32,000 bases of DNA, taken from Phycisphaera mikurensis NBRC 102666 (lineage in GTDB: Bacteria; Planctomycetota; Phycisphaerae; Phycisphaerales; Phycisphaeraceae). The stretch lies in NCBI RefSeq assembly GCF_000284115.1, contig NC_017080.1, positions 1 through 32,000 on the forward strand. Direction: 5' to 3'. Positions 1,636 through 26,749 of this stretch are shown piece by piece (position 1 is the first letter of the stretch; every line of letters begins with the position of its first letter). A model generated the notes under the pieces. That model saw nothing but the letters and a program-made list of their open reading frames with translations. It was not told the DNA's origin and did no database searches. The position numbers were made by a program, and so were the translations under genes.

Positions 1636-1666
1636 CCGGTCCGCGGAGCCCGCGCCCGCGGACCGG
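1636..1666. terminator. Perfect 11-bp GC-rich inverted repeat (ccggtccgcgg / ccgcggaccgg, 9-nt loop) between convergent dnaA and the permease gene; variant of the REP-like family
   Basis: Read directly: ccggtccgcgg-agcccgcgc-ccgcggaccgg. It sits in the 122-nt spacer between two convergent stop codons. There is no U-tract. The arms are the same 10-mers as the 46-nt elements elsewhere, in swapped order. Confidence 0.45.
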
Positions 1667-1684
1667 TCCCGCGGGTCCCGGCCC

Positions 1685-4600
1685 TCAGCCCGCCGCGGCC
1701 TCCCGCCGGTAGCCCTCGCGGCTCTCGTCCGGCAGCGTCCGCCACAGCAGGAACTGCCGACGCAAGCCCGCGAAGAAGGGCTTGTTGAGCCGGGCGAAGT
1801 CGCCGCGCGTCCCCGACAGCCGGTCGACCACGACGCGGACGCGGTCGACGCCGGCGATGTCGGAGGGCTCGCTCCAGAGGCGCAGCCGCTGGGTGACGCC
1901 CAGGTCGAAGGGGGCGAGGGCGACGTCGGCCAGCAGCGTGGGGGCGTCGCCCCCGTCCGGGCCGGCGGCATCCCCCTCGCCGGGCACGGCGGCGACGGAG
2001 GAGCAGGCGAACCGGCCGATGCCGGCGTCGTCGTGGCTGCGGAAGTGCTCGGCGAGGAAGCCGCGGACGCCGCCCATGTCGGCCGCGCTCACGGTGAAGG
2101 GGAAGACCAGGTCGAGCCGGTCGCCGCCGCCGGGCGTTCTCACCGGCGCCGGCAGCCGCCAGCGGCGGACCAGCCCCGGGTTGGCCGACCTCGCCGCCGC
2201 GGCGGCGGGGTACAGCGAGGACAGCATGACCACCGCCATCACCACGCCGGTGGCGAAGAGCGCGTTGCCGCTGGCGAAGTTCACCGGCAGCTCGGGCACG
2301 AGCCCGCGCTGGGCGAGGGTGGCGGACACGCGTGCCAAGAACAGCGCGAGCAGCTGACCCCCGAGGCCGCCGACGACGGCGTAGACCGCGCCCTCGGCCA
2401 GGAACAGCGCCCCGATGTGCCGCGGCGCCAGCCCCAGCGCCGAGAAGGTGTAGATCTCCTGCTTCCGGTCGGAGATCGAGCCGAGCAGCGTGCCGAAGAC
2501 GATGAGCCCGCCGAGCGCCAGCGGCACGACGATGGCCGCGGCCCCGCTGACCGAGGTGAGCGTGGTGAGCACGCGGCGTTCCAGCCCCGCGGCCCCCGCC
2601 GACCAAGCCGGCTGCGGCAACGCGGTCGCGAGCGCGTCGGCGGTTTCGGCGACGCCGATGCCCCCCGCGGGGAAGACGGTGAGCCCGTCGGGCCGGCCGC
2701 CGAGCTCTTCGGCCAGGCGCACGCCGACGAAGGCGACCTCCGCGACGCCGAGCCGCTCGGCCGCGCCGCCGCCCGCCGACGCGGCGGCGTCGCGGCCGGC
2801 CGACGACCCGCCCGCGGCGCGGTCCCGGCCGGGCTCGAGCACCGGCAGCACGGGCTGGCCATCAACGTGGCGCAGCCGCCCGATGCGGTCGGCGTCGAGA
2901 ACCCCCGCGAGGCGCACGCGTCGGCCCGCGAGCCGGAAGCGGTCGCCGACCTCCAGGCGCAGCGACCGCGCCGCCGCGGGGTTGAGGAAGACGCCGTCGG
3001 CGGAGAGCTCGCCAGCGAGGGTGGCGGCGGTGAACCGCTCGGGCCCGACGCCCGACGCGGTGGCGCTGGCGAGCGCCCGCGAGAGCGCCGGCCAGCGCCG
3101 CGGCAGGCGCGGGTCGATCCCGACCACGCAGCGGATCCGGCCGTCGGCGGTGCCGTCCTCCCGGGCGAGCGCGAGGCCGCCGCCGGGCACGCCCTCGGCG
3201 AGGCCCGGCGGGTCGATGCGCCAGGTCGCGAGGGCCTCGGCGGGTCCGCCGGCGCCCACGCCGCCGCCGGCCGCGCCGCCGAGCAGCGACGCGTCGCGGC
3301 CGCCCGCGGCCGAGGCCGCCGCGCCCGCCAACTCCGCCGCGGCCCGCGGGAGCGGGCCGCCGTCGACGCGACGCACCAGCACCGCGTCCGTGGGCGTGCC
3401 CGGACCCGGCGTGCCGACCGCGGCGAGCCCCACGCCCAGCCGCCGCTCGAAGCCGGCGAAGCAGAGCACGGTGAAGGTCAGCACCACCACCGTGAGCGTG
3501 GTGAGCGCGGTGCGGGTCTTCCGCCGCCGCATGGTCGAGATGCCCATCTGCACCGCCGCCAGCAGCGCCGCGACCTGGCCCGCGTTCTGCGGTTGCCCGC
3601 CCTCGCCGTGCAGCTTCGCGAGCTGCACGCGGAACTTGGAGATCAGCAGCACGATCACCAGCCCCGAGAGCAGCAGGATCGCGAAGGCGAGGAACACGAT
3701 GATCGGCGTCGAGGCCACGGCGAAGCCGGGGTGCAGCGCGTACAGCGCCGCGAAGGTGAGCCCGAAGCAGACCGCGAAGCCGGCGACGCGGCCCCGGATG
3801 CCCTTGGCGCCGATCAGCAAGCGCTCGCCGAAGAAGGCGAAGGGCACCGCCAGGGCGAGCAGCAGCACGACGGCGTTGACGAGGTCGTCCATCGCGGCGC
3901 GCAGCGGGTTGTAGACCCGCTGGCCCAGGGCGAAGGCCAGGCGGGCCGCCTCGGGCGCGGCCTCGCCGCCGCCGGCGGCGTTGTCCAGCGCGGCGCGGGC
4001 GTCGCGGTGCAGGCGTTCGAGGTCGCCGCGGAGGATCCCGCGGGCGCGGAGCGCCGCCAGGCGCGACTCGTTGAGCGACCAGAGGTTGCCGGCCGAAGCC
4101 AGCAGCACCGACACCCCGCCGCGACCGGACCCCGCGGCCGCGGGGTCCGCCGGCCCGGCGGCGGGTGCGAACTCCCCGGGCGGCAGCAGCAGCGGGCCCT
4201 CCGGCTGGAAGACGCGGACGCCCGAGTCGGCCAGGCCGGGCGTCAGGTGGTAGAAGCCGAACGGCCCGGCTTGGCCCACGAGCGCATCGGCGGGGCGTGG
4301 CCGCGACCCCGCGGCCCCCAGCAGCACGGTGAATCGCCCGGGCGCCGTCGGCTCATCCGGGCGGAGCGTGACGACGGCGGAACCGGACGCCGCCGCCGAC
4401 CCGTCGCCCAAACCCAGCCCCAGGAGGTCGGTCCGCAGCGCCGCCGCCGGCGTCCCGCCCACGCGCTCCTGCGTGCTCACCGCGGTCAGTGCGCCGCGGG
4501 CGTCGTGCGTCGCCCCCAGCGTGGCCAGCTGGCGGTCGAGGTCGGCGTGGGCGGCCACCACGTCGAAGCGGCCGGCGCCATCGGCGACGACCATCCGCGC

Positions 4601-6889
4601 CGGCTCGTACGAGGGAATCGCCCGGCGGGCGAGGCTGTTCCACGCGTTGGCCGGATCGGCCGGCATCGGGAACAGCGCGACGACCGCCCCGGGCGCCGGC
4701 CGGTCTTCCGCGAGCCCGCCGGCCACCCGCTGCTGCACCACCGGGCCCACCGGCACGCCCAGCGAGTCGTCCGCGGCGCCCGCCGCCGCGACGGCCGCGG
4801 GCCGCCGCGTGCCCGCCCGGTTGTCGATCGCCTTGTCGGCGAAGGGCGCCCGGTCGGGCAGGCCCGGCCGGTTCAGCCCGGCGACGAACAGCCGCAGCGC
4901 CGCGTCGCCCTGGGCCGCGAAGCCGGCGGCGTCCAAAGCGGCGAGCGTGTCGCCGGGGTGGCCGTCGCGGCGTCGGGCGTCGTGGCAGGTGGCGAAGGCG
5001 ACGTTGAAGAAGCCGTGCGTGCCGGCCAGGAAGCCGCTGTGCACGAGCGGGCCGGGCACGGCCAGGCGCCCCGCGGCCGGGTCACGCAGCGTCTCGGCGT
5101 CGAGGCCGCGGAACGCTGGCGCGTCGCCGGCGGCGGCCGCCGCCGCGGCGAAGTGGCCGAGCACCCGCTGGTGGTAGCCGGGCGCGTCCGCCTCGGGCGA
5201 GAGGCTCCACGCCGCGCCCACCCGCCCGGCGTCCGACCCGGCCACCACGCCCCAGGACGGGCCCTCGCCGGAGAGGTCCAGCGAGGCGTGCAGAGCCACG
5301 CGCACGGCACGGGCGTCGCCGGCGACGCGGCCCGACGCCGCGGCCTGCACCGCTTCCTGCTGCCCCAGCTCGACCTGCCGCCGTGCCGCCGCCGTCGAGC
5401 GTGCCCGCAGCGCCGCCCGGGCCGCGGCGAGCAGCTCCCGCCCCTCCCGCGGCGCCGCCTCCACCGTGAAGAGCGTCCCCGCGTCGGCCGCCTCGTGCAC
5501 GTGGCGCCGCACCGCGTCCCAGCGGGCGACGCGACCGGACACCGTCGGCAGCATCGCTCCCGCCGCTTCGTCACCCCGCGCCGCCTCCAGCCGCAGCAGC
5601 CGCAGCTCCCGCGCCGCGTCGGCCCGGGCCCACGCCGCCCGGGCCGCCAGGAGCGGGCGCAGCGATGCGGCGGCCGAGGCCGGCAGGCCGCGCGCCGCGT
5701 CGGCGTCCTGCGGGAGCGTCCGCAGGGCGAGCGTCGACGCCGCCAGGTCGCGGGCGGCGGCCTGGATCGCCTCCCGCCGCCGGGCCGGGTCGTCGGTGAG
5801 CGCCGCGTAGAACGTCCGGGCCCCCTGCATCCCGCGGCCGGCGTTGTCGAGGAAAACCAGCACGACCCGCCGCGGCGGCGGGTCGGCCGCGAGGCGCCGG
5901 GCCGCCTCCAGCAGCAGCGCCGCGTTGGCCGCGTTCCGCGCCCCCGGGCCGCGCTCTGGCACGCTGCCGAAGCTGTCCAGGTCGGCCGCGAGCACGACCG
6001 GCCGCCGCCGCGCCGCCGCCGCGGTCAGCGCCGGCGTGGCCCCCGGGGCCGGCTCGATGACCGCCACCACGCTGCGGCCCGTCGCCGCCACCACCGGCAC
6101 CGCCGCCTCCAGCGTCGCCTCGGCGCCGCCCGCGGTCAGGTCCAGCCCCGCGGAGAGCCCGCTGCCGGGATCGACCTCGGCGAAGAAGCGGGGCAGGTTC
6201 ATCGGCGCCGGAACCGACTTCATCGCTTCGCCCGCCGCGACGCCCGCCTCGGCCCGGAAGACCACCGCCGCCGCGCCCAGCGCGAAGGCTCGCTCCCACG
6301 CCTCCTGCGGCACGTCATAATCGAGCACCACGATCGGGGCCGCGTCGCCCGGCGTCGCCACCGCCGCCGCGACCTCCGCGGCCGACCCCCGCCCCGCGTA
6401 CCGCAGCGGCCCGGTCAGCCCGCCCGCGGGCGTGACCGGCGGGCACACCAGGTTCGGCCGGCACGGGAACAGCGGCACCACGCCCCGCTCGAAGCCGTTG
6501 GCGTCGCGGACCGTCAGCCGCACGCCGCTCTTGGCCCCGCCGTCCGCGGCACCGGCTCCCGGTCCGGGTCCTTGCTCCAGCCGCGGCATCGTCTGCCACA
6601 CCGGCATCTCCAGCGGCAGCACCTCGTCCACCCCCGCCTCCCGCAGCCGCTGCATCACGTACGCCGAGGCGTCCCGCCCCGGCTCGGTCCCGGCCAGCCG
6701 GTGCGGGTACGACGCCAGCCTCGCGAGGTCCCGCTCGAAAGCGGGCCCCAGCGAGGAAGGCTCCCGGGCGGCCGCCCGACCGCCAAGAAGCACCGCCGCG
6801 AGGACGGCGAGGATGCCCAACCCGCGGACCCGACGGCCCGCGGAGCGAGCGTCCGACGCCGAGCCCGGAGAAGCGTTCCGAGCGTTCAA
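1685..6889 (-). CDS. Giant ABC-transporter permease (1734 aa): N-terminal anchor, PA/M28-peptidase-like ectodomain, 3-TM cluster, MacB-type TM plus second ectodomain, C-terminal FtsX module, 163-aa cytoplasmic tail
   Basis: One uninterrupted frame. Proposed TTG start at 6889 overlaps the ATPase stop (TTGA). Anchor GLGILAVLAAVLLGG. PA-like PIVVLDYDVPQEAWERAFALGAAAVVF. M28-like VVLAADLDSFG, PGARNAANAALLLEAARRLA, VVLVFLDNAGRGMQGARTFY and GHPGDTLAALD. MacB-like MRRRKTRTALTTLTVVVLTFTVLCFAGF. FtsX motif SISDRKQEIYTFSALGLAPRHIGALFLAEGAVYAVVGG. The start codon is uncertain. Confidence 0.85.
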   Translation of the reverse strand: MNARNASPGSASDARSAGRRVRGLGILAVLAAVLLGGRAAAREPSSLGPAFERDLARLASYPHRLAGTEPGRDASAYVMQRLREAGVDEVLPLEMPVWQTMPRLEQGPGPGAGAADGGAKSGVRLTVRDANGFERGVVPLFPCRPNLVCPPVTPAGGLTGPLRYAGRGSAAEVAAAVATPGDAAPIVVLDYDVPQEAWERAFALGAAAVVFRAEAGVAAGEAMKSVPAPMNLPRFFAEVDPGSGLSAGLDLTAGGAEATLEAAVPVVAATGRSVVAVIEPAPGATPALTAAAARRRPVVLAADLDSFGSVPERGPGARNAANAALLLEAARRLAADPPPRRVVLVFLDNAGRGMQGARTFYAALTDDPARRREAIQAAARDLAASTLALRTLPQDADAARGLPASAAASLRPLLAARAAWARADAARELRLLRLEAARGDEAAGAMLPTVSGRVARWDAVRRHVHEAADAGTLFTVEAAPREGRELLAAARAALRARSTAAARRQVELGQQEAVQAAASGRVAGDARAVRVALHASLDLSGEGPSWGVVAGSDAGRVGAAWSLSPEADAPGYHQRVLGHFAAAAAAAGDAPAFRGLDAETLRDPAAGRLAVPGPLVHSGFLAGTHGFFNVAFATCHDARRRDGHPGDTLAALDAAGFAAQGDAALRLFVAGLNRPGLPDRAPFADKAIDNRAGTRRPAAVAAAGAADDSLGVPVGPVVQQRVAGGLAEDRPAPGAVVALFPMPADPANAWNSLARRAIPSYEPARMVVADGAGRFDVVAAHADLDRQLATLGATHDARGALTAVSTQERVGGTPAAALRTDLLGLGLGDGSAAASGSAVVTLRPDEPTAPGRFTVLLGAAGSRPRPADALVGQAGPFGFYHLTPGLADSGVRVFQPEGPLLLPPGEFAPAAGPADPAAAGSGRGGVSVLLASAGNLWSLNESRLAALRARGILRGDLERLHRDARAALDNAAGGGEAAPEAARLAFALGQRVYNPLRAAMDDLVNAVVLLLALAVPFAFFGERLLIGAKGIRGRVAGFAVCFGLTFAALYALHPGFAVASTPIIVFLAFAILLLSGLVIVLLISKFRVQLAKLHGEGGQPQNAGQVAALLAAVQMGISTMRRRKTRTALTTLTVVVLTFTVLCFAGFERRLGVGLAAVGTPGPGTPTDAVLVRRVDGGPLPRAAAELAGAAASAAGGRDASLLGGAAGGGVGAGGPAEALATWRIDPPGLAEGVPGGGLALAREDGTADGRIRCVVGIDPRLPRRWPALSRALASATASGVGPERFTAATLAGELSADGVFLNPAAARSLRLEVGDRFRLAGRRVRLAGVLDADRIGRLRHVDGQPVLPVLEPGRDRAAGGSSAGRDAAASAGGGAAERLGVAEVAFVGVRLAEELGGRPDGLTVFPAGGIGVAETADALATALPQPAWSAGAAGLERRVLTTLTSVSGAAAIVVPLALGGLIVFGTLLGSISDRKQEIYTFSALGLAPRHIGALFLAEGAVYAVVGGLGGQLLALFLARVSATLAQRGLVPELPVNFASGNALFATGVVMAVVMLSSLYPAAAAARSANPGLVRRWRLPAPVRTPGGGDRLDLVFPFTVSAADMGGVRGFLAEHFRSHDDAGIGRFACSSVAAVPGEGDAAGPDGGDAPTLLADVALAPFDLGVTQRLRLWSEPSDIAGVDRVRVVVDRLSGTRGDFARLNKPFFAGLRRQFLLWRTLPDESREGYRREAAAG

Positions 6890-7662
6890 GGCTCTTCCCC
6901 CGCCACCGAGCCCACCGTGATCCGCACGTCCTCGCGTTCCTGCACGCGGTCGAGGCGGCCGTCTTTGATCCACATGATGCGGTCGCACAGGGCCAGCAAG
7001 CGGTGGTCGTGCGTCGAGCAAACCACCGTCACCCCCGCGTCGCGGTTGATCCGCACGAGCAGGTCCAGGACGTCCTGGCCGGTCGCGAAATCCAGGTTCG
7101 CCGTGGGCTCGTCCGCCAGCAGGATCGCCGGGCGGTTGGCCAGCGCACGGGCGATCGCCACCCGCTGCTGCTGCCCGCCGGAGAGCTCGACGGGCCGGTG
7201 ATCCCACCGCTGGGCGATCCCCACCGTCTCCAGCAGGGCCATCCCCCGGCCGCGCGCCGCGTCGGGATCGACACCCGCGAAAGCCATGGGCACCGTCACG
7301 TTCTCCAGCGCCGTCATGTACCGCACGAGGTTGTACTGCTGGAAGATGTACCCGATCTTGCGGCAGCGGAGGAAGGCCAGCTCCGCCGCCGACAGCTGCG
7401 CGACGTCCACCTCGTCGATCAGGATCCGCCCGCCGGTGGGCCCGTCCAGCCCGCCGATCATGTTGAAGAAGGTCGATTTGCCCGAGCCCGACGGCCCCAT
7501 CACCGCGATCAGCTCGCCCCGGTGGATCACCGCGTCGACCCCGCGGAGCGCGTGCGTCGCCGCGTCGCCGCCGCCGTAGACCTTGGTGAGGCCGACGGTG
7601 CGGATGATCGGAACCGGCGCCCCGGGATCGAGCGGGGGCGGTGGCGTGGCGGACGCTTCCAT
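6886..7662 (-). CDS. ABC transporter ATP-binding protein, MacB/LolD-type (258 aa)
   Basis: ATG at 7662 (MEASATPPPP...). Walker A GPSGSGKST, Q-loop FQQYNL, signature LSGGQQQRVAIARAL, Walker B ILLADEPT, H-loop CSTHD. The track ORF extends to 7800 through Arg/Gly-rich sequence that I do not accept as coding. Confidence 0.95.
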   Translation of the reverse strand: MEASATPPPPLDPGAPVPIIRTVGLTKVYGGGDAATHALRGVDAVIHRGELIAVMGPSGSGKSTFFNMIGGLDGPTGGRILIDEVDVAQLSAAELAFLRCRKIGYIFQQYNLVRYMTALENVTVPMAFAGVDPDAARGRGMALLETVGIAQRWDHRPVELSGGQQQRVAIARALANRPAILLADEPTANLDFATGQDVLDLLVRINRDAGVTVVCSTHDHRLLALCDRIMWIKDGRLDRVQEREDVRITVGSVAGEEP

Positions 7663-7709
7663 GCGGGCCGGGAGCGTACGGAAGCGGGCGGCCGCCCCGG
7701 CCCCCGACG

Positions 7710-7755
7710 CCGCGGACCGGAGGCCGGAACGCGGCCCGGCGGCCACGGTCCGCGG
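7710..7755. repeat. REP-like 46-nt palindromic element, copy 1 (CCGCGGACCG-N26-CGGTCCGCGG)
   Basis: ccgcggaccg-gaggccggaacgcggcccggcggcca-cggtccgcgg. The stem extends to 11 bp with g7709/c7756. Intergenic, between tRNA-Gly and the ABC ATPase start. Confidence 0.75.
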
Positions 7756-7808
7756 CGGCGGCGGCGCGACGCGTCCGTTTCCGCTTCCGCTTCCGCGCAC
7801 GAGGACAA

Positions 7809-7824: not shown

Positions 7825-7845
7825 CCGCTCCTGCGTCGGCGAACT

Positions 7846-7917: not shown

Positions 7918-7967
7918 GTGAGTGGCGGAGAGTGTAGACGGTCGCCGCTTGGCGTCAACCGGCTTCC

Positions 7968-17386: not shown

Positions 17387-18328
17387 TCAGCCCGCCGTTG
17401 CACCCACGCCGCGGAGCGCTTCCGCGACGCCGGCGACGCCGAGCAGCAGGCCCAGCACGCCGTTGACGGTGAGGAAGGCGGTGCCCAGGCGCTCGAGCCG
17501 GCCCCCGCGCACGAGCCACTGCTCGCACAGCAGCAGGGCCAGCGCCAGCGTGGTCGCGCCCGCGAAGAGCGGCCCCAGCCGCGGCTCGGCGAGGTTCAGG
17601 CCCGCCAGCGAAAGGAACGCCAGCGCGTGCAGCGCCCGCGACACCGCCACCGCCCCCCCCGCACCGAACCGGGCCGGGACCGAGCGGAGACCCAGCCGCG
17701 CGTCCACCTCCCGGTCGGCCAGGGCGTAGAGCACGTCGAAGCCCGCCACCCACCCCGCGACGAAGCCCGCGAGCAGCCACGGCCCCGGCGTCGCCGCGTA
17801 CGCCGGTTCCACCGCCAGCGCCGCGGCGACCGGCGACACCGCCAGCGCCACGCCGAGCACGACGTGGCACCAGGCCGTGAACCGCTTCGTGAAGCTGTAC
17901 AGCGCGAGCCAGCCGAGCACGGGGAGCGCGAGCGCAACCGGCCAGAGGTTCCCGCGGAGGAACCAGAAGCCCGCGGCCGCCGCGACGAAGAGCACGGCCG
18001 AAACCACGATCGCGCCCCCGGCGAAGGCCGCGGACAGCCGGCCCGCCGGGATCGCGCGGCCCGCGGTCCGCGGGTTCTGGGCGTCGAAGCCGGCGTCGGC
18101 CACCCGGTTGACCGTCATCGCGAAGGTGCGGGCCGTCACCATGCAGGCGAGGACCAGCAGAAGCTCCCCGGGCGTCGGCCACCGCCCCGCCGACGCGGCC
18201 GCGAGGGCCATGCCCAGCAGGCCGAAGGGCAGCGCGAAGACCGAGTGGCTGAGCTTGATGTCGCGGGCGAGCGCGGCGGAAGAGGCAAGAGACGAAGAGA
18301 CGAAGAGACGAAGGGACGGAGTCAGCAC
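17387..18328 (-). CDS. UbiA-family aromatic prenyltransferase (MqnP/UbiA-like; about 313 aa)
   Basis: NRVADAGFDAQNPRTAGRAIPAGRL (NxxxDxxxD...RT..R motif) and YALADREVDARLGLRSVPARFG (second Asp-rich motif). Multiple TM helices. Start is GTG at 18328 (7-nt overlap with the ubiX stop) or GTG at 18373. Confidence 0.85.
   Translation of the reverse strand: MLTPSLRLFVSSSLASSAALARDIKLSHSVFALPFGLLGMALAAASAGRWPTPGELLLVLACMVTARTFAMTVNRVADAGFDAQNPRTAGRAIPAGRLSAAFAGGAIVVSAVLFVAAAAGFWFLRGNLWPVALALPVLGWLALYSFTKRFTAWCHVVLGVALAVSPVAAALAVEPAYAATPGPWLLAGFVAGWVAGFDVLYALADREVDARLGLRSVPARFGAGGAVAVSRALHALAFLSLAGLNLAEPRLGPLFAGATTLALALLLCEQWLVRGGRLERLGTAFLTVNGVLGLLLGVAGVAEALRGVGATAG
18287..18318. repeat. Tandem octamer (aagagacg x3 plus aagggacg) inside the 5' end of the UbiA-family CDS
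   Basis: Read directly: aagagacg aagagacg aagagacg aagggacg, preceded by the related gaagaggc. It encodes SLRLFVSSSL on the minus strand. The unit length is not a multiple of 3. Confidence 0.8.
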
Positions 18329-19963: not shown

Positions 19964-20009
19964 CCGCGGACCGCCGCTCTTGGCGAGCGCGACGCGCGAC
20001 GGTCCGCGG
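19964..20009. repeat. REP-like 46-nt palindromic element, copy 2
   Basis: ccgcggaccg-ccgctcttggcgagcgcgacgcgcga-cggtccgcgg. Both arms are exact and the interior is 26 nt. It ends 26 nt before the dgt ATG. Confidence 0.75.
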
Positions 20010-20035: not shown

Positions 20036-21370
20036 ATGAGCGACCCGCCGCCCGTGCTCCGCTGGGACCGCCTGCTCTCGGCGGAGCGGATCCCGCTGCC
20101 CGGTGAGGAGGCAGACGCCGCGTCCGCGCGCAGCGGCGACGCCCACCGCACGCCCTTCGAGGCCGACCACGACCGGGTCGTGTACGCGGCCCCGTTCCGG
20201 CGGCTGGCCCGCAAGACGCAGGTCCACCCGCTGGCCCCCAACGATCAGGTGCACAACCGGCTGACGCACTCCATCGAGGTCGCCAGCGTGGGGAGGTCGC
20301 TGGGGCGGCGGCTGGGCGCCTTCTTGACGGGGCGCGGCGACCTCGCCCGGGAGCACGCCGACGACCTCGTGTGGATCCTGCAGGCCGCCTGCCTCGCCCA
20401 CGACCTGGGGAACCCGCCCTTCGGCCACGCCGGGGAGTACGCGCTGCGGGCCTTCGCCGCGAAGCACCCCGCCGACGTGCCGGGTGCGGGCACGCCCGCC
20501 GCGGCCGATTGGGCGCTCTTCGAGGGCAACGCCCAGGGGTTCCGCCTCGCCGCCCGAGCCGACAACCCAGGGGCCGGCCACCTGCGGCTGACGTGCTCGA
20601 CGCTGGGCGCGATCGTCAAGTACCCGTGGGCGGTGGACGACCCGCGGGCCGCCGCCCGGGGCAAGTTCAACGCCTTCCACTCGGAGAAGGACGTCTTCGC
20701 ACGGGTGGTCGACGCGTGCGGTCTCGCGCTGCCGGGCGGCCGCGTCGCCCGGCACCCGCTGTCGTTCCTCGCCGAAGCCGCCGACGACATCTGCTACCGG
20801 ATCCTCGACCTCGAGGACGCCGTGGAGATGCGGATCGTCCCGGAGGAGCGGGTGCGGCGGATCTTCGCCGGCTTCACCGAGGCCGACCCCGCCGCCCCGC
20901 TGTCGAAGCTCCGCGGCGGCGTCATCCGCGCGCTGGAGCGGGCCTGCTGGAACGCCTTCGTCGACGGCTTCCCGGCGGTCATGGCGGGCGAGCGGGAGGA
21001 CGACCTGAAGTCGAGCCTCGCCGGCCGGCTGCCCGACGCGCTCGCCGAGGTGAAGGCGCTGTACGGCGAGATCTTCGCCCACCGCGACAAGGTGGCCGCC
21101 GAGCTGGGCGCGTACAAGGCGCTCGGCCGGATCGTCACCGCGCTCGCCCGCTCGGTCGACGACCTCACCGCCTCCCCGGGCCGCCGCTTCGCCGAGACGG
21201 ACTTCCTCACGCAGCGCACCCTCGAGCTCGCCTTCGGCCGGTCCCACGTGGAAGAGCACCCCGGCCGCGGGGCGTTCTGGTGGAGTCACCGGGTGATGGA
21301 CTTCGTCAGCGGCCTCACCGACAACGGCGCCCGCGACCTCTCCGCCGCGATCGACGGCCACGCGGCGTGA
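20036..21370 (+). CDS. dgt: dGTPase-family deoxynucleoside triphosphate triphosphohydrolase (HD domain, 444 aa)
   Basis: ATG at 20036. RTPFEADHDRVVYAAPFRRLARKTQV, NRLTHSIEVASVGRSLG and CLAHDLGNPPFGHAGE (HD motif). Confidence 0.93.
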   Translation: MSDPPPVLRWDRLLSAERIPLPGEEADAASARSGDAHRTPFEADHDRVVYAAPFRRLARKTQVHPLAPNDQVHNRLTHSIEVASVGRSLGRRLGAFLTGRGDLAREHADDLVWILQAACLAHDLGNPPFGHAGEYALRAFAAKHPADVPGAGTPAAADWALFEGNAQGFRLAARADNPGAGHLRLTCSTLGAIVKYPWAVDDPRAAARGKFNAFHSEKDVFARVVDACGLALPGGRVARHPLSFLAEAADDICYRILDLEDAVEMRIVPEERVRRIFAGFTEADPAAPLSKLRGGVIRALERACWNAFVDGFPAVMAGEREDDLKSSLAGRLPDALAEVKALYGEIFAHRDKVAAELGAYKALGRIVTALARSVDDLTASPGRRFAETDFLTQRTLELAFGRSHVEEHPGRGAFWWSHRVMDFVSGLTDNGARDLSAAIDGHAA

Positions 21371-21380
21371 GGGCCTCCGC

Positions 21381-21417
21381 CGGCTGCGCAACGCCCGCGC
21401 AGCCGTGTTTTGTTTCT
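21381..21417 (+). terminator. Rho-independent terminator of dgt
   Basis: cggctgcgc-aacgccc-gcgcagccg (9-bp perfect stem) followed by tgttttgtttct, starting 11 nt after the TGA. Confidence 0.75.
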
Positions 21418-21421
21418 GGAA

Positions 21422-21467
21422 CCGCGGACCGTCGGCGTTCCGGGCGTCGACGGCCGGCGATCCGCGG
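21422..21467. repeat. REP-like 46-nt palindromic element, copy 3 (one arm mismatch)
   Basis: ccgcggaccg-tcggcgttccgggcgtcgacggccgg-cgatccgcgg. The interior is 26 nt. It starts 5 nt after the dgt terminator T-tract. Confidence 0.7.
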
Positions 21468-21585
21468 GGAGGCCCGGCTGCAGCCTGGCGGCGAGGGCGC
21501 TGGGGACCTCGATCTTCACGAACGCCGAGCAACCGGTCGCGGGCGCGGAGCCGCCCACCGGCTCCGGATGTCTGCGACATTTTGC

Positions 21586-21613
21586 TTGACTACAGGTACA
21601 ACTCTGATACATT
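21586..21613 (+). promoter_or_regulatory. Sigma70-like promoter candidate (TTGACT-16 nt-TACATT) for the regulator/DUF1559 locus
   Basis: It sits in the most AT-rich patch I noticed among the window's intergenic spacers (gacattttgcttgactacaggtacaactctgatacattttcgg), 62 nt upstream of the regulator ATG. TACA occurs three times (21591, 21597, 21608). Confidence 0.4.
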
Positions 21614-21616
21614 TTC

Positions 21617-21652
21617 GGAGCGGGCCGGTCTTTCCCGGCCGGTTCCCGCTCC
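21617..21652 (+). promoter_or_regulatory. Leader hairpin or palindromic operator candidate directly after the -10 element
   Basis: ggagcggg...cccgctcc is an 8-bp outer stem enclosing ccgg/ccgg or ggccgg/ccggcc pairings around tctttc. It ends 22 nt before the ATG at 21675. Confidence 0.35.
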
Positions 21653-21674
21653 CGTCGCCTCCGAGGCTCCTCCG

Positions 21675-22853
21675 ATGCCGCCGCCCGATCCCCTCCACGA
21701 GGCCCTCGCCGCGACATACCCGCCGCGTGGGTCGGCCGACCAGCTGCGGGAGCGCCTGCTCACGGTGCTCCGCGACGCCTCCACGGCGGCGGGTTCGAGC
21801 TTCTTCACCGACGCCGACCTCGTGGAGATGACCGGCCTGTCGCGGAGCACGGTCCGGCGGGCGATGGACCGGCTCCAGGCCGAGGGGTGGGTGCAGCGGG
21901 AGATCGGCCGCGGGACCTTCGTCGGGCCGCGGGCCGTTGGAGCGGCCGCCACGCCGGGACCGGAACAACCAGCCGGAGGCGACGCGGGCCGGGCGCTCCG
22001 CCGGGTCGCGGTGGCTTCGTTCCGGCTTGCCGGAACGACCACGCTGGAGACCGACTGGTACACGGCGGCTCTCCTGCAGGGTCTGGACCGGACCTGCCAC
22101 GAGCACCACGTGGCGGTGGAGCTGCTCGGCCTCACCGAGATGCGCAGCGACGTGCTGGTCGAGCGGATCCGCCGCTCGCGGCCCCACGTGCTGGTGTGCC
22201 TCGCCCCGGGCCCGACGTCCGTCGAGCTGCTGCTGGAGGCGCAGCGGTGCGGGATCCGCCGCGTCGTCGTGGCCTCCGCCCGAACCGTGGATGGCGTGCC
22301 GGCGCTCGTGGAGAACAACCACCAGGGCGCCCGCGTCGCGGTGGAGCACCTCGCTTCGCTGGGCCACGAACGGATCGGATTCCTGAACCGCCGGCTCGGC
22401 GCCGTCTGGCTGCACGAGCGGCAGCACGGGCACGTCGAGGCGCAGCGTGCACTGGGCTTGCCCGACGACGAGGGGCTGACCTGCTGGTTCGCGCCGCCGT
22501 CCGGGCCCTGGGAGCCCACCCCCGACGACACCGCGGCCATCGCCCGGTGGCTGGAGCGGTCGGGCGCGACCGCCGTGGTCTGCGGGACCTTCTACGGAGC
22601 GCTGGCGCTGGAGCCGGCGGCGGAGCTCGCCGGCCTCGCGGTGCCCGCCGACCTGTCCGTGCTGGCCTTCGACGACCACCCGCTGCTCCGCAGCGCCTTC
22701 GGTGGGCGGTCGGTTACCCGCCTGGGCGTTCCGCTGGGCGAGATGGGCGGCATGATCGCGCGCGTCGCCGGCAGCGGCCAGGACTTGCCGCCGACCACCT
22801 TCTTCGACTTCGACTTCATCCGCGGCGGGACGACCGCCGCGCCCCTCTCCTGA
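21675..22853 (+). CDS. Hybrid transcriptional regulator: GntR-type winged HTH plus LacI/PBP-type sugar-binding domain (392 aa)
   Basis: ATG at 21675. HTH LVEMTGLSRSTVRRAMDRLQAEGWVQREIGRGTFV. C-terminal periplasmic-binding-fold pattern (PALVENNHQGARVAVEHLASLGHERIGFL...PADLSVLAFDD). Confidence 0.85.
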   Translation: MPPPDPLHEALAATYPPRGSADQLRERLLTVLRDASTAAGSSFFTDADLVEMTGLSRSTVRRAMDRLQAEGWVQREIGRGTFVGPRAVGAAATPGPEQPAGGDAGRALRRVAVASFRLAGTTTLETDWYTAALLQGLDRTCHEHHVAVELLGLTEMRSDVLVERIRRSRPHVLVCLAPGPTSVELLLEAQRCGIRRVVVASARTVDGVPALVENNHQGARVAVEHLASLGHERIGFLNRRLGAVWLHERQHGHVEAQRALGLPDDEGLTCWFAPPSGPWEPTPDDTAAIARWLERSGATAVVCGTFYGALALEPAAELAGLAVPADLSVLAFDDHPLLRSAFGGRSVTRLGVPLGEMGGMIARVAGSGQDLPPTTFFDFDFIRGGTTAAPLS

Positions 22854-22889
22854 TCCCCGGGATCGGGATCTTCCTCTCCGAGTCTCGCC

Positions 22890-23657
22890 ATGGCCCCTCC
22901 CCGCCGCTGCGCTGCCGCCTTCACCCTCATCGAGCTGCTCGTGGTGATCTCGATCATCGCGCTGCTGATCGGGATCCTGCTGCCGGCGCTGGGCGCCGCC
23001 CGCGCCGCGGCCCGCGACGTGGCCTGCCTAAGCAACGTCCGCCAGTTCGGGATCGCCTTCGCCGCCTACGAAGCGGACAGCCGCGTCCTGCCGGCCGGGA
23101 AGACCAGCAGCAGCCCGTACCTGGACTGGTCGATCTCGCTCCGGGAGGACTACCTCTCCGGCGAGCGGGAGCAGACGCTGCGGTGCCCCTCGGCCGCGGA
23201 GGGCGCGGCCACCGCGAACAAGCACTACAACACCCACCCGCGGCTGATCCCGGACCTGGAGATCGACGACTTCGCGGCCCCGGTGCCCCGCCCCAAGCTG
23301 CGCCAGATTCGCACGGATCAGATCCGCGCCGTCACCGACCTGTACCTGATCTCCGACGGCGGCCAGGCGCCCGAGAGCGATCCCTTCGTCCCGCTGGCGT
23401 CGCAGCCGGTGGCCACGCGCGTCGACGGCAACCGAATCTTCTACCAGGGCGTGGTCGCGTACAGCAACCAGGATCCCAACGAGCGGATCGATCCCGGGAA
23501 CCAGACCAGCAACGGAGGCTTGGGCGACCCCTTCAGCCCACGCTTCCGCCACGGCAACGACGCGGTCGGCAGCTTCCTGTTCGCGGACGGCCACGGCGGC
23601 ACCCTCGGCGCCGACACCTTCACCGCGAAGCACGTGCGGGTGCCCAACCCCTACTGA
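22890..23657 (+). CDS. DUF1559-type protein with prepilin-like N-terminal methylation motif and H-X9-DG-like C-terminal motif (255 aa)
   Basis: [35 protein letters not shown]-terminal [19 protein letters not shown]. Position -1 is Ala rather than the usual Gly. Confidence 0.9.
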
Positions 23658-23733
23658 CCGCGTCCTGATCGTCTTCCCCTCGCGGCCGCCTGCCGGGCGG
23701 CCCGCACCCGCCCCTTCTCACCCGGAGAATCCC

Positions 23734-24498
23734 ATGGCCCGCTTCCCCTTCCCCGCCCTCCTCGCCGCCGCCGCCCTCGCGGCCGCGGCCCCGTCCGCCC
23801 AAGCGGCGACCTTCTTCGAAGACTTCGACGGCGACACGATCGCCACGACCGACCTCACGATCACCAGCCGCGACGGCGAGGCGGTGAACACGATCGTCAG
23901 CCAGGGGGCGTCCGACGACGCGCTGCAGATCCAAACCCTGGGCAACGACGGCGACCTGGTCCGCGCGACGACCACCGACGCCACCGCGGTGCAGCAGTTC
24001 ACCGTCTCCGCCGACGTTTCGACCGTCGCCCAGAACTTCTCGCGGAGCTTCACCGGCCTCCTCGCCGGCGGAGCGAACACGATCAACAACGACGGCTACC
24101 GCGTCCGCGTCCGGCAACCCGGCTTCAGCGACACCGGCTACGTGCTCGAGCTCCGCTCGGGCGGTGCCGTCATCGACACGACCCCGATCGCGGCGAGCCC
24201 CCAGGGCAACCCCTTCACGCTCACCCTCAGCGGGTTCCTCGACGCGGCCGGCGACCTGCAGCTGACCGGCACCAACGGCACCGAGACCGTCTCGGGCACG
24301 GTCAGCGCCAGCGGCGTCTTCTTCGGGGCCGGGGCGTACGGCATCGAGGGCGGCGGCGACTTCAGCAACAACCGCTACGAGGTTCAATTCGACAACCTCA
24401 GCGTCGACGTCAGCAACGTGCCGGTGCCCGAGCCCGGCTCGCTGCTGCTGGCCTCCGCCGGCGTCGGCTTGCTGGCTCTGCGCCGCCGCCGCGCCTGA
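23734..24498 (+). CDS. PEP-CTERM sorting-domain secreted protein (254 aa)
   Basis: ATG at 23734 with GGAG 6 nt upstream. Signal peptide MARFPFPALLAAAALAAAAPSAQA. C-terminal VPVPEPGSLLLASAGVGLLALRRRRA. Confidence 0.88.
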   Translation: MARFPFPALLAAAALAAAAPSAQAATFFEDFDGDTIATTDLTITSRDGEAVNTIVSQGASDDALQIQTLGNDGDLVRATTTDATAVQQFTVSADVSTVAQNFSRSFTGLLAGGANTINNDGYRVRVRQPGFSDTGYVLELRSGGAVIDTTPIAASPQGNPFTLTLSGFLDAAGDLQLTGTNGTETVSGTVSASGVFFGAGAYGIEGGGDFSNNRYEVQFDNLSVDVSNVPVPEPGSLLLASAGVGLLALRRRRA

Positions 24499-24553
24499 AG
24501 CGCAGCGACCCGGATCCCGCTCGTTGCCCTCCACCCGGGGGCCACGGGCCTTC

Positions 24554-26692
24554 ATGCGTCCCGCACCCGCCCTCCTCGCCGCCCTCTTGCTCGCGCTCCC
24601 GGCGCCGGCGTCCTCCGCCGGATCCGCCGCGGGCGCCTGGCACGCCGTGCCGTGGGTGACGGCCGACGCGCTGACCGACCCCGCGGTCACGCGCGGGGGC
24701 GAGGGCGGGCAGTGGATCCGCTCGCTGGCGATCGACGGAGCCGACGGATCCTTCCTGATCTATGGAACCGACGTCGGCGGCCTGTTCCGCACCCTCGACG
24801 GCGGCGACACCTGGGAGCCCGCGAACGTTGGCTACGAGCCCCGGGGCACCTGCGCCGTCGCGATCGACCCGGCGAACCCCGACCGCTGCCTCTCGGTCGG
24901 GGCCAACTCCGTGGCTTCCGACGCGCACGGGATCTGGCTGAGCACCGACCGGGCCGGCTCGTGGGAGCACAAGCTCGTGGCCCGGATCTCCTCGACCGTC
25001 GACTTCCGCCAGCAGCTCGCCTACGACGCCGCGAGCTTCGACGAGGCCTTGGGTTTCTGCACCGACGCGTACTGGTCACGGATCCGCGACGACGAAGCGA
25101 AGTGGGGCGAGGTCCAGCCCGACCCGGCGCTGTACCGGACCTCCGACGGCGGCGAGACGTGGGAGCGGCTCCCCGGCTCGGAGCCGTTCGCCGGCGGGCA
25201 CCTCGTGACCCACCCCACACGCCGCGGCGTGCTCTACGCGACCCACCCCGGCGGCCTGTCGGTGAGCGAGGACCGCGGCGAGTCCTTCCGGCTCCTGCTC
25301 GCGGGGAACTTCGCGGGCGTGGCGGTCTCCCCCGACCGCCCCGACGCGCTGTGGGTGGCCCACCCCGGTGGCTTGAAGATCTCGCACGATGGCGGCCGCA
25401 CCTGGGCCGACAGCCCGATGACCGGCGTCTCGCTGGAGGGCCGGGAGGGCGTGGTGTTCGAGCACCCGACGGCGAGCCCGGTGGACGCCGACCGCCTCGC
25501 CGTGCGCAGCCGCGACGAGGACTGGTCCTGGAAGCTGCACGTCTCCGGCGACGGCGGCCGCGGCTTCCGCGAGGCCGCTTTCGACAACGACCTCGCCTTC
25601 CTGCCCTTCAACGTCCGCCACTGGGCGGTCGCGTGGAGCCCGACGAACGCCCGGATCGGCCACACGGTCGGCGGGGACTGGGCGACCCGGTCGCTCGACG
25701 GCGGCGAGACCTTCGCCTGGGCGGGCGACGGGATCAACGGCATCAAGGTCGGCGGCGCCTTCCACTTCGGCTCCGCGTCGCCGGGCACCGTCTACCTGGG
25801 GGCCCAGGACTACAACGGCGCCATCACCCGCGACGGCGGCCGCACCTGGAGCTACGTCAACGCCTCGGGCGACGGCTGGGGCGGCATGGCCTACGGCGGC
25901 TTCGCGGTCGACGACCGGACGCTGATCGTCGGCAAGGGCGAGGGCTGGGACGGGCTCCGGGTGGTGACCGTTTCCACGGACGGCGGTGAAACGATGCGGG
26001 AGGTGCCCGGGGCGACCTGGGACGGCAACCGGTCGGATCCCGCGACGTTCGGGCTGGAAAGCTCTCTCGCCGATCCGCGACGCGAGGGCGTCTGGTTCTG
26101 CGGGCCGTTCCGGACCGCCGACGCGGGCGGGAGCTGGGAACGCATGACCGGCTGCCACGGCGTGGTCGCGGCGCAGGGCGGCTTGCTCTACGGCGTGCGG
26201 CAGACCGACGGGGACGACGCCGCCGTGGTCACCAGCGCCGACGGCGGCGTGGCGTGGCGGCCGCTGGTGGGCGGGTACGCCCGGATCCGGGACGTGGCTC
26301 CCGAGGTCGGCGGCGACGGGGTGTACTTCGTCGCGGACAAGAAGCTGCACCGCTTCGACGCCGACACCGGCGTCGAGGTGCTCGACACGCCGGGCGACGC
26401 CCGGTGGGGCCGCAACGTGGCCAGCGTCGCGACGGACCCCGGTCGGCCGGGCCGGCTGTACGCGGCCCAGCACACCAACGCCCACAAGTCCTCGGTGGGC
26501 GCGATGGTCTCGCGGGACGGCGGGCGGACCTGGGCCTCGCTCACCCGCACCGAGCCGCTGGACGGAAGCGGCGACGGCGGCGGCCTTGACGGCGGCAACG
26601 AAGCTTCGTGGGTCCGCGTGGATCCCGCGACGGGGGACGCCTGGTTCGCGACCGGCTGCTACGGGCTCTGGCGATGGAGCCCGGCGGACTGA
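24554..26692 (+). CDS. Secreted Asp-box (BNR) repeat beta-propeller protein, GH74/sortilin-like (712 aa)
   Basis: ATG at 24554 with signal peptide MRPAPALLAALLLALPAPASSA (the track start at 24524 is TTG). About 12 SxDxGxTW-type boxes, for example TLDGGDTWEP, TSDGGETWERL, ISHDGGRTWAD, ITRDGGRTWSY, VSRDGGRTWAS. Confidence 0.8.
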   Translation: MRPAPALLAALLLALPAPASSAGSAAGAWHAVPWVTADALTDPAVTRGGEGGQWIRSLAIDGADGSFLIYGTDVGGLFRTLDGGDTWEPANVGYEPRGTCAVAIDPANPDRCLSVGANSVASDAHGIWLSTDRAGSWEHKLVARISSTVDFRQQLAYDAASFDEALGFCTDAYWSRIRDDEAKWGEVQPDPALYRTSDGGETWERLPGSEPFAGGHLVTHPTRRGVLYATHPGGLSVSEDRGESFRLLLAGNFAGVAVSPDRPDALWVAHPGGLKISHDGGRTWADSPMTGVSLEGREGVVFEHPTASPVDADRLAVRSRDEDWSWKLHVSGDGGRGFREAAFDNDLAFLPFNVRHWAVAWSPTNARIGHTVGGDWATRSLDGGETFAWAGDGINGIKVGGAFHFGSASPGTVYLGAQDYNGAITRDGGRTWSYVNASGDGWGGMAYGGFAVDDRTLIVGKGEGWDGLRVVTVSTDGGETMREVPGATWDGNRSDPATFGLESSLADPRREGVWFCGPFRTADAGGSWERMTGCHGVVAAQGGLLYGVRQTDGDDAAVVTSADGGVAWRPLVGGYARIRDVAPEVGGDGVYFVADKKLHRFDADTGVEVLDTPGDARWGRNVASVATDPGRPGRLYAAQHTNAHKSSVGAMVSRDGGRTWASLTRTEPLDGSGDGGGLDGGNEASWVRVDPATGDAWFATGCYGLWRWSPAD

Positions 26693-26703
26693 GCCTTCCA
26701 GAT

Positions 26704-26749
26704 CCGCGGACCGCCGGCCGTTCCGGCCGTTCCGGCCGACGGTCCGCGG
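26704..26749. repeat. REP-like 46-nt palindromic element, copy 4 (interior holds ccggccgtt x2.8)
   Basis: ccgcggaccg-ccggccgttccggccgttccggccga-cggtccgcgg. Both arms are exact, the interior is 26 nt and pairing continues 6 bp inward. It starts 12 nt after the stop of the first propeller gene. Confidence 0.78.

What the first reader, a model, noticed from the sequence alone, without database searches (positions are those of the whole stretch)
1636..26749. Dispersed intergenic palindromic element family CCGCGGACCG-N26-CGGTCCGCGG (REP-like)
Seen directly. Four copies share identical 46-nt geometry: 7710-7755, 19964-20009, 21422-21467 (3' arm cgatccgcgg, one mismatch) and 26704-26749. The interior is always exactly 26 nt but differs in sequence. 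In three of the four it starts ccg or tcgg and ends cga or ccgg, so pairing continues 3-6 bp inward; the 7710 copy differs and pairs through an offset inner stem instead. Copies 1 (read as its reverse complement), 3 and 4 share a cgttccgg core. A fifth locus (1636-1666) uses the same 10-mers in swapped order around a 9-nt loop. All five are intergenic, although intergenic DNA is only a small fraction of the window. Single arms do occur inside CDS (14439-14448, 18064-18073, 18344-18353), but none has an exact partner at the 26-nt spacing. Conserved arms with a fixed-length, variable interior do not look like ordinary terminators. Possible roles (inference): REP/BIME-type elements mobilised by a RAYT-like transposase, mRNA-stabilising or terminating hairpins, or paired half-sites for a DNA-binding protein.
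Basis: seen in the sequence. Interest (0 to 1): 0.7.

Follow-up and report, generated by a model that had tools for sequence, protein, structure and literature searches.

The report
Fixed-length palindromic repeat family in Phycisphaera
The window, from the planctomycete Phycisphaera mikurensis, carries a real and apparently undescribed family of 46-base palindromic repeats, with two invariant 10-base arms around a free-drifting spacer of exactly 26 bases, that resembles known REP elements but also appears, unusually, written onto ordinary protein-coding sequence.

Summary
The window is the dnaA region of Phycisphaera mikurensis. CCGCGGACCG-N26-CGGTCCGCGG occurs about once per 6 kb in 75 kb of this genome. 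It also occurs in congeneric genomes (88-91% DnaA/ClpB identity) but not in more distant Phycisphaerae.

The arms are almost always perfect. The half-site extends outward (C-S-G-A-N) and inward (Y-S-G). The spacer is 26 nt in about 60 of 62 copies, although neighbouring intergenic DNA is full of indels. The interior evolves roughly neutrally, shows no covariation, and keeps only a weak shared consensus.

Single arms are at chance frequency, so the pair is the unit. Most copies are intergenic, in all intergene types. They are not canonical terminators.

Two things are unexpected:
- Exact or 1-mismatch units lie on native, gap-free coding sequence (NAPRTase, ADH, UbiA).
- Two units in a ~94%-identical tandem duplication (~97% outside the unit) have unrelated interiors.

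Foot plus stem resembles the REP-like hairpins that flank class 3 Y1-HUH transposase genes of Planctomycetes.

Best reading: a REP-type, protein-recognised element of a new variant. A RAYT-like gene could not be sought.

The parts
7710..7755 (.). Exact 46-nt unit (CCGCGGACCG-N26-CGGTCCGCGG). It lies in the intergenic region 90 nt downstream of tRNA-Gly (7846-7917, minus strand) and upstream of the ABC ATPase gene.
19964..20009 (.). Exact unit in a divergent intergenic region, 26 nt upstream of the ATG at 20036 (HD-domain protein).
21422..21467 (.). Unit with one arm mismatch (CGATCCGCGG). It lies between a canonical terminator (21381-21405) and a promoter-like site (21586-21613).
26704..26749 (.). 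Exact unit 11 nt after the stop of the BNR/sortilin gene. It is conserved at the matching position after the homologous BNR gene in relative L122 (arms 20/20, interior 20/26).
14877..14922 (.). 1-mismatch unit inside native coding sequence of a zinc-type alcohol dehydrogenase (ADH). It encodes AADREAPGPGEVAVRV.
18028..18073 (.). 1-mismatch unit inside native UbiA prenyltransferase coding sequence. It encodes PRTAGRAIPAGRLSA.
6504..6549 (.). 2-mismatch unit at N26 inside the 5' part of the 1685-6823 ORF. It may be a proto-site or a decaying copy.
1636..1666 (.). Hairpin built from the same two 10-mers in swapped order with a 9-nt loop, between the convergent dnaA and 1685-6823 genes. This arrangement was seen only once in 233 kb of lineage DNA. 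It has the arm order of the Rubinisphaera brasiliensis GTAG REP.

Best explanation
The units are a lineage-specific REP-type repeat family of the genus-level Phycisphaera clade.

**How it works (proposed)**
- The two 10-nt arms, plus about 3 nt inward and a C-n-G-A-N 'foot' outward, are the recognition determinant of a sequence-specific protein.
- When single-stranded, the arms pair into one 10-13-bp stem flanked by feet on both sides, a 'double-foot' hairpin.
- The 26-nt interior is a spacer or loop. Its sequence is free but its length is constrained.
- The most likely partner is a Y1-HUH enzyme of the TnpA_Y1 class 3 / RAYT kind. It would bind stem plus foot on single-stranded DNA and occasionally copy or replace units.
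- Individual copies are then kept by selection at the host level.

**Shown**
- The family, its geometry and its lineage range.
- Arm invariance against a neutral interior.
- The length constraint.
- That the pair, not the arm, is the unit.
- Placement across intergene types and in coding sequence.

**Inferred**
- The hairpin form.
- The identity of the protein.
- Copying or replacement as the mode of spread.
For: **Source and abundance**
- The source genome is P. mikurensis.
- There are 12 units with <=1 mismatch in 75.5 kb of this genome.
- A relative with 88% DnaA identity has 7 units in 21 kb. Further relatives and one marine metagenome add more.
- None was found in L176/L177 or L179.

**Arms versus interior**
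- Arms are either perfect or absent. In 139 kb there are about 45 exact copies, 3 with 1 mismatch and 1 with 2 mismatches.
- The half-site consensus extends to -4 C, -3 G/C, -2 G/A, -1 A (55%), and to position 11 Y, 12 S, 13 G. CNGA occupies -4 to -1 in 14 of 84 half-sites, against roughly 2% expected.
- Interior identity between copies is 0.44, against 0.34 for shuffled interiors, with no covariation.
- Orthologous units keep their arms while interior and flanks diverge and flanks gain indels.
- The N25 and N27 variants each also carry an arm mutation.

**Turnover**
- Two units in a 419-nt tandem duplication (94% identical overall, ~97% outside the unit) differ completely in the interior and in the 14 nt after the right arm. 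This points to replacement or independent insertion.

**Link to known REPs**
- The foot and stem match the 5' half of the class 3 TnpA_Y1 REP-like hairpins, a class found mainly in Planctomycetes, with about 600 copies in Solibacter usitatus (PMC6006769).
- A 9-mer is shared with the R. brasiliensis RAYT REP.
Against: - No Y1-HUH gene was found, but only about 2% of the genome could be inspected.
- No GTAG or CGTC tag is present, and the foot is present at only about half of the half-sites.
- There is no master sequence, and no two loci share a near-identical interior. That argues against recent transposition.
- Exact and 1-mismatch units lie on native, gap-free coding sequence: NAPRTase, ADH and UbiA. 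They cannot be insertions.
- A strict loop length is not an obvious requirement for hairpin recognition and fits a rigid double-stranded-DNA-binding dimer better.
- By my own rough estimate the class 3 resemblance has about a 3% chance of arising somewhere in that table by coincidence.
Confidence: 0.42

Rival explanations
1. Bipartite double-stranded-DNA site. A rigid dimeric or tetrameric host DNA-binding protein recognises two inverted ~15-bp half-sites centred 36 bp apart. Candidates are a nucleoid-structuring protein, a gyrase-type or roadblock protein, or a protein that marks gene boundaries. Sites are created and kept in place by selection or by a molecular drive, not by transposition.
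For: - Information peaks in the 10-bp core and decays on both sides.
- The 26-bp spacing is strict although flanks are rich in indels.
- There is no covariation.
- Arms are sharply either perfect or absent.
- Exact and near-exact units are superimposed on native coding sequence at the same spacing: 3 pairs with <=1 mismatch in 67 kb of CDS, against 0.000 in codon shuffles. All lie within ~50-320 nt of gene junctions in operons without spacers.
- Unit 21422 lies between a terminator and a promoter.
- Units occur in divergent, convergent and tandem intergenic regions.
Against: - The L178 duplicated units have unrelated interiors plus an unrelated 14-nt tail. This is hard to explain by evolution in place.
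- Intergenic interiors share a weak consensus (TTYC at positions 17-19 in 27 of 63 units).
- The foot and stem resemble class 3 REP hairpins.
- No candidate protein is known, and I know of no precedent for a 36-bp centre-to-centre palindromic site present in hundreds of copies.
Confidence: 0.3
2. RNA-level element. The transcribed hairpin has the same stem sequence from either strand. It would be a processing, stabilising or factor-dependent termination signal at gene ends, recognised by a specific RNA-binding protein or RNase.
For: - Many copies start 1-50 nt after a stop codon.
- The stem is stable, at -29 to -40 kcal/mol.
- At the BNR 3' end, the relative that lacks the family carries a different GC-rich palindromic stretch in its place.
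- REPs in enterobacteria are known to stabilise upstream mRNA (established knowledge; PMC6006769 background).
Against: - 5 of 21 intergenic copies in unbiased loci lie in divergent intergenic regions, 0-62 nt upstream of start codons.
- There is no T-run after the units, while the organism does use canonical terminators, one directly upstream of unit 21422.
- The interior motif shows no orientation bias relative to transcription: 7 sense against 4 antisense.
- There is no covariation.
- Copies inside coding regions would cut or stall the host's own mRNAs.
Confidence: 0.15
3. Decaying miniature inverted-repeat transposable element (MITE) with 10-bp terminal inverted repeats, mobilised by a DDE transposase.
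For: The unit has inverted termini and is short, dispersed and mostly intergenic.
Against: - There are no target-site duplications.
- The interior is near saturation while the termini are perfect.
- Some copies are native coding sequence.
- Conservation extends beyond the termini.
Confidence: 0.04
4. Compositional coincidence of CCGCGG-rich, 74% GC sequence.
For: - Single arms and arm sub-words occur at Markov-expected frequency.
- Chance pairs do occur in unrelated high-GC genomes.
Against: - There are 9 matches against 0.26 expected.
- Spacing is exclusively N26 in this lineage, against uniform spacing elsewhere.
- Codon shuffles give 0.
Confidence: 0.005

Closest known systems
REP-like hairpins flanking class 3 TnpA_Y1 (Y1-HUH) genes (Quentin et al. 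2018, PMC6006769; e.g. CCGAGCCGCGACCGTAAGGGAGCGGA in Legionella and Solibacter; found mainly in Planctomycetes and Acidobacteria)
   Same: - A CnGA foot, one spacer base, then a stem that begins CCGCG.ACCG followed by T.
- GC-rich.
- Can reach hundreds of copies.
- The phylum matches.
   Different: - One extra G in the stem.
- The tandem G.A internal loop is replaced by Watson-Crick pairs.
- The GTNA tetraloop is replaced by a 26-nt variable loop.
- Feet occur on both sides.
- No associated gene has been shown here.
REP / BIME / REPIN-RAYT systems (E. coli, Pseudomonas; PMC3116915, PMC3733652)
   Same: - Short palindromes, dispersed and in high copy.
- Mostly extragenic and often at gene 3' ends.
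- Persist at orthologous sites.
- Restricted to a lineage.
- 'Double-foot' and long-loop variants are known, and intragenic copies are known.
   Different: - No GTAG or CGTC tag.
- No master sequence; the interior is essentially neutral.
- A strictly fixed 26-nt loop.
- Single units rather than doublets.
- Not depleted from divergent intergenic regions.
- The CDS copies are native sequence rather than insertions.
Rubinisphaera (Planctomyces) brasiliensis GTAG REP: GTAG-GGTCCGC-TCC-GCGGACC (PMC6006769 Table S1)
   Same: - Shares the 9-mer CCGCGGACC and the 7-bp stem core.
- Has the same arm order as the swapped hairpin at 1636-1666.
   Different: - The opposite arm order to the N26 units.
- A 3-nt loop.
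- A GTAG foot, which is absent here.
DNA uptake sequences (Neisseria DUS, Pasteurellaceae USS)
   Same: - Mostly perfect copies, shared within a genus-level clade.
- Present in both intergenic and coding DNA, where they shape the amino-acid sequence.
- Often found as inverted pairs after genes.
   Different: - Here single arms are at chance frequency.
- Only the pair at exactly 26 nt is over-represented.
- Density is about five times lower.
- No link to competence is known.
Intrinsic (Rho-independent) terminators
   Same: A GC-rich hairpin that often follows a stop codon.
   Different: - No T-run.
- Invariant stem sequence and a 26-nt loop.
- Also found in promoter regions and coding sequence.
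- A canonical terminator coexists next to unit 21422.

Membership tests
REP / REPIN-RAYT | Short (about 20-65 nt) palindromic repeat in high copy, dispersed in the genome | tested here: met
   The unit is 46 nt. There are 12 units with <=1 mismatch in 75.5 kb of P. mikurensis, which extrapolates to roughly 600 per genome. Relatives also carry copies.
REP / REPIN-RAYT | Predominantly extragenic | tested here: met
   About 12 units lie in ~9 kb of intergenic DNA against 5 in ~66 kb of CDS, roughly a 17-fold enrichment.
REP / REPIN-RAYT | Conserved unpaired tetranucleotide foot (GTAG, CGTC or CnGA) next to the stem | tested here: inconclusive
   There is no GTAG or CGTC. A occupies position -1 in 55% of half-sites, and CNGA occupies -4 to -1 in 17%, on either or both sides.
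REP / REPIN-RAYT | A cognate Y1-HUH (RAYT / TnpA_Y1) gene flanked by the repeats | not testable with these tools
No such ORF exists in the ~300 kb held.
REP / REPIN-RAYT | Copies form a sequence population around a master sequence, with the whole unit conserved | tested here: not met
   Interior identity is 0.44 against 0.34 for shuffled interiors. No near-identical pairs occur at different loci.
Intrinsic terminator | Stem-loop followed by a T/U run | tested here: not met
   No unit was called by the scan, and no T-run follows any unit. A canonical terminator was called at 21381-21405.
MITE | Terminal inverted repeats with target-site duplication and a conserved interior | tested here: not met
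   There are no direct repeats at the flanks, the interior is diverged, and the CDS copies are native sequence.
DNA uptake sequence (DUS/USS) | A single short motif strongly over-represented genome-wide | tested here: not met
   Outside the units there are 5 and 3 single arms, against 4.3 and 2.7 expected. Arm sub-words are also at expectation.
Rfam RNA families | Match to a curated covariance model | tested here: not met
   Only tRNA-Gly scores at the gathering threshold in the window.
CRISPR / integron attC arrays | Clustered arrays of direct repeats, or cassettes with RYYYAAC/GTTRRRY core sites | tested here: not met
   The units are solitary and dispersed, their arms are inverted, and they lack these core sites.

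The most novel reading that the evidence does not exclude
The unit is not primarily a transposed sequence. It is a genome-wide bipartite signal, two inverted 10-15-bp half-sites exactly 26 bp apart, that is actively written or strongly selected in place, even onto conserved protein-coding sequence. It is occasionally rewritten: the interior and a short tail are replaced while the arms stay. On this reading it would be a new kind of self-marking or boundary signal, driven by a site-specific enzyme or uptake-like bias. It would be comparable in logic to DUS/USS or Chi but recognised as a spaced pair.
Probability: 0.22. Interest if true: 0.85.

Novelty: new variant of a known kind. Interest (0 to 1): 0.6.

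Why it matters
- Repeat families of Planctomycetota are barely charted. This one is abundant, extrapolating to roughly 600 copies in a 3.8-Mb genome, and is sharply defined. I could not find it described: searches for the arm strings and for the organism returned nothing relevant.
- It separates constraints that are usually entangled in REP elements. Sequence constraint falls only on the arms, length constraint falls on the spacer, and the interior is neutral.
- Units on native coding sequence, together with unrelated interiors inside a young duplication, point to maintenance or rewriting processes that current REP/RAYT models do not cover.
- The family also offers a concrete substrate for the uncharacterised class 3 Y1-HUH proteins of Planctomycetes.

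Tried and rejected
- **Genome-collection scan with a variable gap.** It served only as a background for spacing.
- **Exact-sequence look-ups of DnaA and P0009.** Both failed.
- **Inner-stem or long-hairpin model.** Rejected. Nested-pair frequencies equal permuted controls, and the mean folding z-score is only -0.8.
- **One-sided orientation.** Using T at position 11, TTYC, or the foot gives no consistent relation to transcription.
- **Partial arms in the flanks, as a REPIN-like outer arm.** They occur at the background rate.
- **RAYT between paired units in L159.** The ORF there is a small membrane protein.
- **Regex and local HMM for Y1-HUH across all loci.** Nothing found.
- **Canonical class 3 REP hairpins in lineage loci.** None found.
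- **P. mikurensis plasmid in PLSDB.** Not present.
- **Orthology of metagenome contigs to held loci.** None was usable.
- **Simple inversion of the interior between the L178 duplicates.** 13 of 26 positions match, which is not informative.
- **Methylase or very-short-patch-repair style k-mer drive on CCGCGG or CGGWCCG.** Rejected.
- **Clean empty-site comparison.** Not obtained. Intergenic regions without the unit are not alignable to those with it.
Full report
**Source and gene map**

The window is about 74% GC. Its DUF1559 pseudopilin gene (22890-23657) is 100% identical to a Phycisphaera mikurensis protein on a 3,803,225-bp contig. Its 5' end lies inside dnaA of that species (P0121). A GC3 frame analysis plus Pfam gave this map:
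- dnaA on the plus strand, to 1562.
- A packed minus-strand block from 1685 to 19674, holding an FtsX/M28 giant ORF, an ABC ATPase, a methyltransferase, four glycosyltransferases, a zinc-type alcohol dehydrogenase (ADH), two epimerases, UbiA, a flavoprotein and a PEP-CTERM protein.
- Plus-strand genes from 20036 to 29478.

tRNA-Gly lies at 7846-7917 on the minus strand.

**Checking the observation**

At up to 3 mismatches the N26 pattern has 9 matches, against 0.26 expected. The extra matches fall in coding sequence: 14877-14922 and 18028-18073 (1 mismatch each) and 6504-6549 (2 mismatches).

**The family beyond the window**

- Other P. mikurensis loci carry more units. L121 has four exact units in 20.9 kb. 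L180 has two exact units in 22.6 kb.
- Congeneric genomes from metagenomes carry them too. L178 (88% DnaA identity) has five exact copies plus two variants in 21.4 kb. L183 has three, L181 one and L122 one.
- A fixed-N26 scan of metagenomes returned 53 stretches, about 31 of them from one marine assembly with ~70% GC.
- No unit was found in 18 kb of L176/L177, which carry the window's 21.6-29.5 kb gene order (GntR regulator, DUF1559, PEP-CTERM, BNR), nor in L179 (62% DnaA identity).
- In unrelated high-GC genomes the same arm pair occurs by chance at all spacings from 11 to 41 nt, without a peak at 26.

The family is therefore specific to a genus-level clade. Its density is about one unit per 6 kb, which extrapolates to roughly 600 per genome (inference).

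**Anatomy**

- **Arms.** They are invariant. In 139 kb of lineage DNA there are about 45 exact units, three with one mismatch and one with two. Counts at 3-4 mismatches are near the background seen at other spacings.
- **Spacing.** It is 26 nt in all exact pairs. The two off-length copies, N25 (L178 15054) and N27 (L183 11822), each also carry an arm mutation.
- **Half-site.** The consensus continues outward: -4 C 0.51, -3 G 0.54 or C 0.37, -2 G or A, -1 A 0.55, and 0 never A. It continues inward: position 11 Y, 12 S, 13 G.
- **Interior.** It shows no pairing beyond what the symmetric consensus gives. It keeps only weak family resemblance, with best-orientation identity of 0.44 against 0.34 for shuffled interiors, and TTYC starting at positions 17-19 in 27 of 63 units.
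- **No recent copies.** No two different loci share a near-identical interior.
- **The pair is the unit.** Single arms and all arm sub-words occur at Markov-expected frequency outside the units.

**Evolution at orthologous sites**

- The unit after the BNR gene is shared by P. mikurensis and L122. Arms are 20/20 identical and the interior 20/26. The 8 nt to the left differ, and a 12-15-nt indel abuts the right arm. At the same position L176/L177 have a different GC-rich palindromic stretch.
- The DnaJ-ClpB spacer carries a homologous unit in L178 and L183. The arms are kept, while interior and near flanks are about 55-65% identical and the flanks hold several indels. P. mikurensis and L181 lack it.

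So the interior and flanks evolve about neutrally, the arms and the spacer length are under constraint, and units are gained and lost between close species.

**Placement**

In the loci not selected for carrying a unit, 21 intergenic units split into 8 convergent, 8 tandem and 5 divergent (and my tabulation). Many start 1-50 nt after a stop codon. The divergent ones lie 0-62 nt upstream of a start codon.

None is followed by a T-run. A canonical hairpin+T-run terminator lies at 21381-21405, just upstream of unit 21422-21467, and a promoter-like site follows at 21586-21613. That unit therefore sits in a probably little-transcribed spacer. The interior motif has no consistent orientation relative to transcription.

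**Two unexpected findings**

First, units lie on native coding sequence.
- L180 21101-21146 is exact and lies in the NAPRTase C-terminal domain. It aligns gap-free to PDB 2f7f.
- Window 14877-14922 encodes AADREAPGPGEVAVRV of the ADH N-terminal domain, gap-free against 4ej6.
- Window 18028-18073 encodes the conserved UbiA NPRT...RLS segment, gap-free against 4od4.
- L121 15394-15439 is exact and lies inside a TIGR03915 domain match covering residues 5-250 against profile positions 2-243.
- In 67 kb of P. mikurensis CDS there are three pairs with <=1 mismatch at N26, and only one at any other spacing from 2 to 62. In 300 codon shuffles the mean count was 0.000.

These copies cannot be 46-nt insertions. 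The arms were acquired in place. All lie within about 50-320 nt of a gene junction in operons without spacers.

Second, L178 17978-18396 and 18397-18815 form a 419-nt tandem duplication. It is 94% identical overall and ~97% identical outside the unit. Each copy carries a unit, but the two interiors and the 14 nt after the right arm are only about 45% identical, while both arms persist. This needs replacement, independent insertion or local rewriting.

**Comparison with known systems**

Searches for the arm strings and for the organism found no description of this family.

Surveys of REPs define GTAG- and CGTC-tagged families, with stems of 5-13 bp and loops up to about 20-27 nt, and note intragenic copies (PMC3733652). 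Quentin et al. (PMC6006769) describe class 3 TnpA_Y1 proteins. These occur mainly in Planctomycetes, Acidobacteria and some Proteobacteria. Their genes are flanked by atypical hairpins with a CnGA foot, which reach about 600 copies in Solibacter usitatus.

Their Table S1 gives CCGAGCCGCGACCGTAAGGGAGCGGA and relatives. The 5' half, CnGA-G-CCGCGACCG-T, matches the independently derived half-site here, C-S-G-A-N-CCGCGGACCG-T, with one extra G. By my rough estimate such a match has about a 3% chance of arising somewhere in that table. It is a lead, not proof.

The same table lists a Rubinisphaera brasiliensis RAYT REP, GTAG-GGTCCGC-TCC-GCGGACC. It shares the 9-mer CCGCGGACC and has the arm order of the swapped hairpin at 1636-1666.

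No Y1-HUH ORF is present in the DNA I hold. The rest of the genome could not be searched.

**Weighing the explanations**

- **For a REP-type, HUH-recognised element:** the resemblance in foot and stem, the high copy number, the extragenic bias, the lineage restriction, gain and loss between species, and the replaced unit in the duplication.
- **For a rigid bipartite double-stranded-DNA site kept by selection in place:** the strict spacing amid indel-rich flanks, arms that are either perfect or absent, the lack of covariation, and above all the native CDS copies.
- **Against a purely RNA-level role:** copies in divergent intergenic regions, the neighbouring canonical terminator, and the CDS copies.
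- **Excluded:** MITE, uptake-sequence and compositional explanations fail specific tests.

The first two readings are not exclusive. Enterobacterial REPs are both RAYT substrates and protein-binding sites.

I commit to a REP-type, protein-recognised element of a new variant, with a fixed-length neutral spacer and a double foot, at confidence of about 0.4. The bipartite double-stranded-site model follows at about 0.3.

Noticed in passing
window 21381-21405 and 21586-21613: A canonical intrinsic terminator (9-bp stem, then TGTTTTGTTT) follows the HD-domain gene. A sigma-70-like promoter match precedes the GntR/LacI-type regulator gene. This shows the organism uses ordinary terminators.
   Followed up: partly
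window 7846-7917 (minus strand), promoter-like site 7958-7931: A tRNA-Gly(GCC) gene sits in the spacer that also holds unit 7710-7755.
   Followed up: yes
window 29587-29603 / 29657-29673: A perfect 17-nt inverted repeat (GCGCACCGCGCGCCATC) with a 53-nt spacer lies in the convergent intergenic region after the 26860-29478 gene. Its arms are unrelated to the family.
   Followed up: no
window 1685-6823 (minus strand): A ~1713-aa ORF of about 80% GC has only FtsX and Peptidase_M28 domain hits. Most of its length is unassigned.
   Followed up: no
window 21657-29478; L121 7786-10891; L122 and L176: A recurring module appears at several P. mikurensis loci and in relatives. It consists of a LacI-like regulator, a DUF1559 pseudopilin, a PEP-CTERM protein and BNR/sortilin proteins, and resembles a polysaccharide-utilisation locus.
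   Followed up: partly
L178 17978-18815 and 18327-18908: A 1-kb gene-free spacer downstream of clpB holds a 419-nt tandem duplication (94% identical overall, ~97% outside the unit) and a 52-nt tandem repeat in 4 copies. Its function is unknown.
   Followed up: partly
L178 13952-13997: A unit ends at the base immediately before the annotated ATG of the DnaJ-like gene. It would therefore occupy the whole ribosome-binding region.
   Followed up: no
L178 6924-6985: Here the palindrome extends 8 nt beyond both arms (CTGAGAAT...ATTCTCAG). It contains the TGA stop codons of both convergent genes.
   Followed up: no
L179 17899-18535; L183 7634-8291 and 12844-13510: HepT/MNT toxin-antitoxin pairs are present in the related Phycisphaerae loci.
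   Followed up: no
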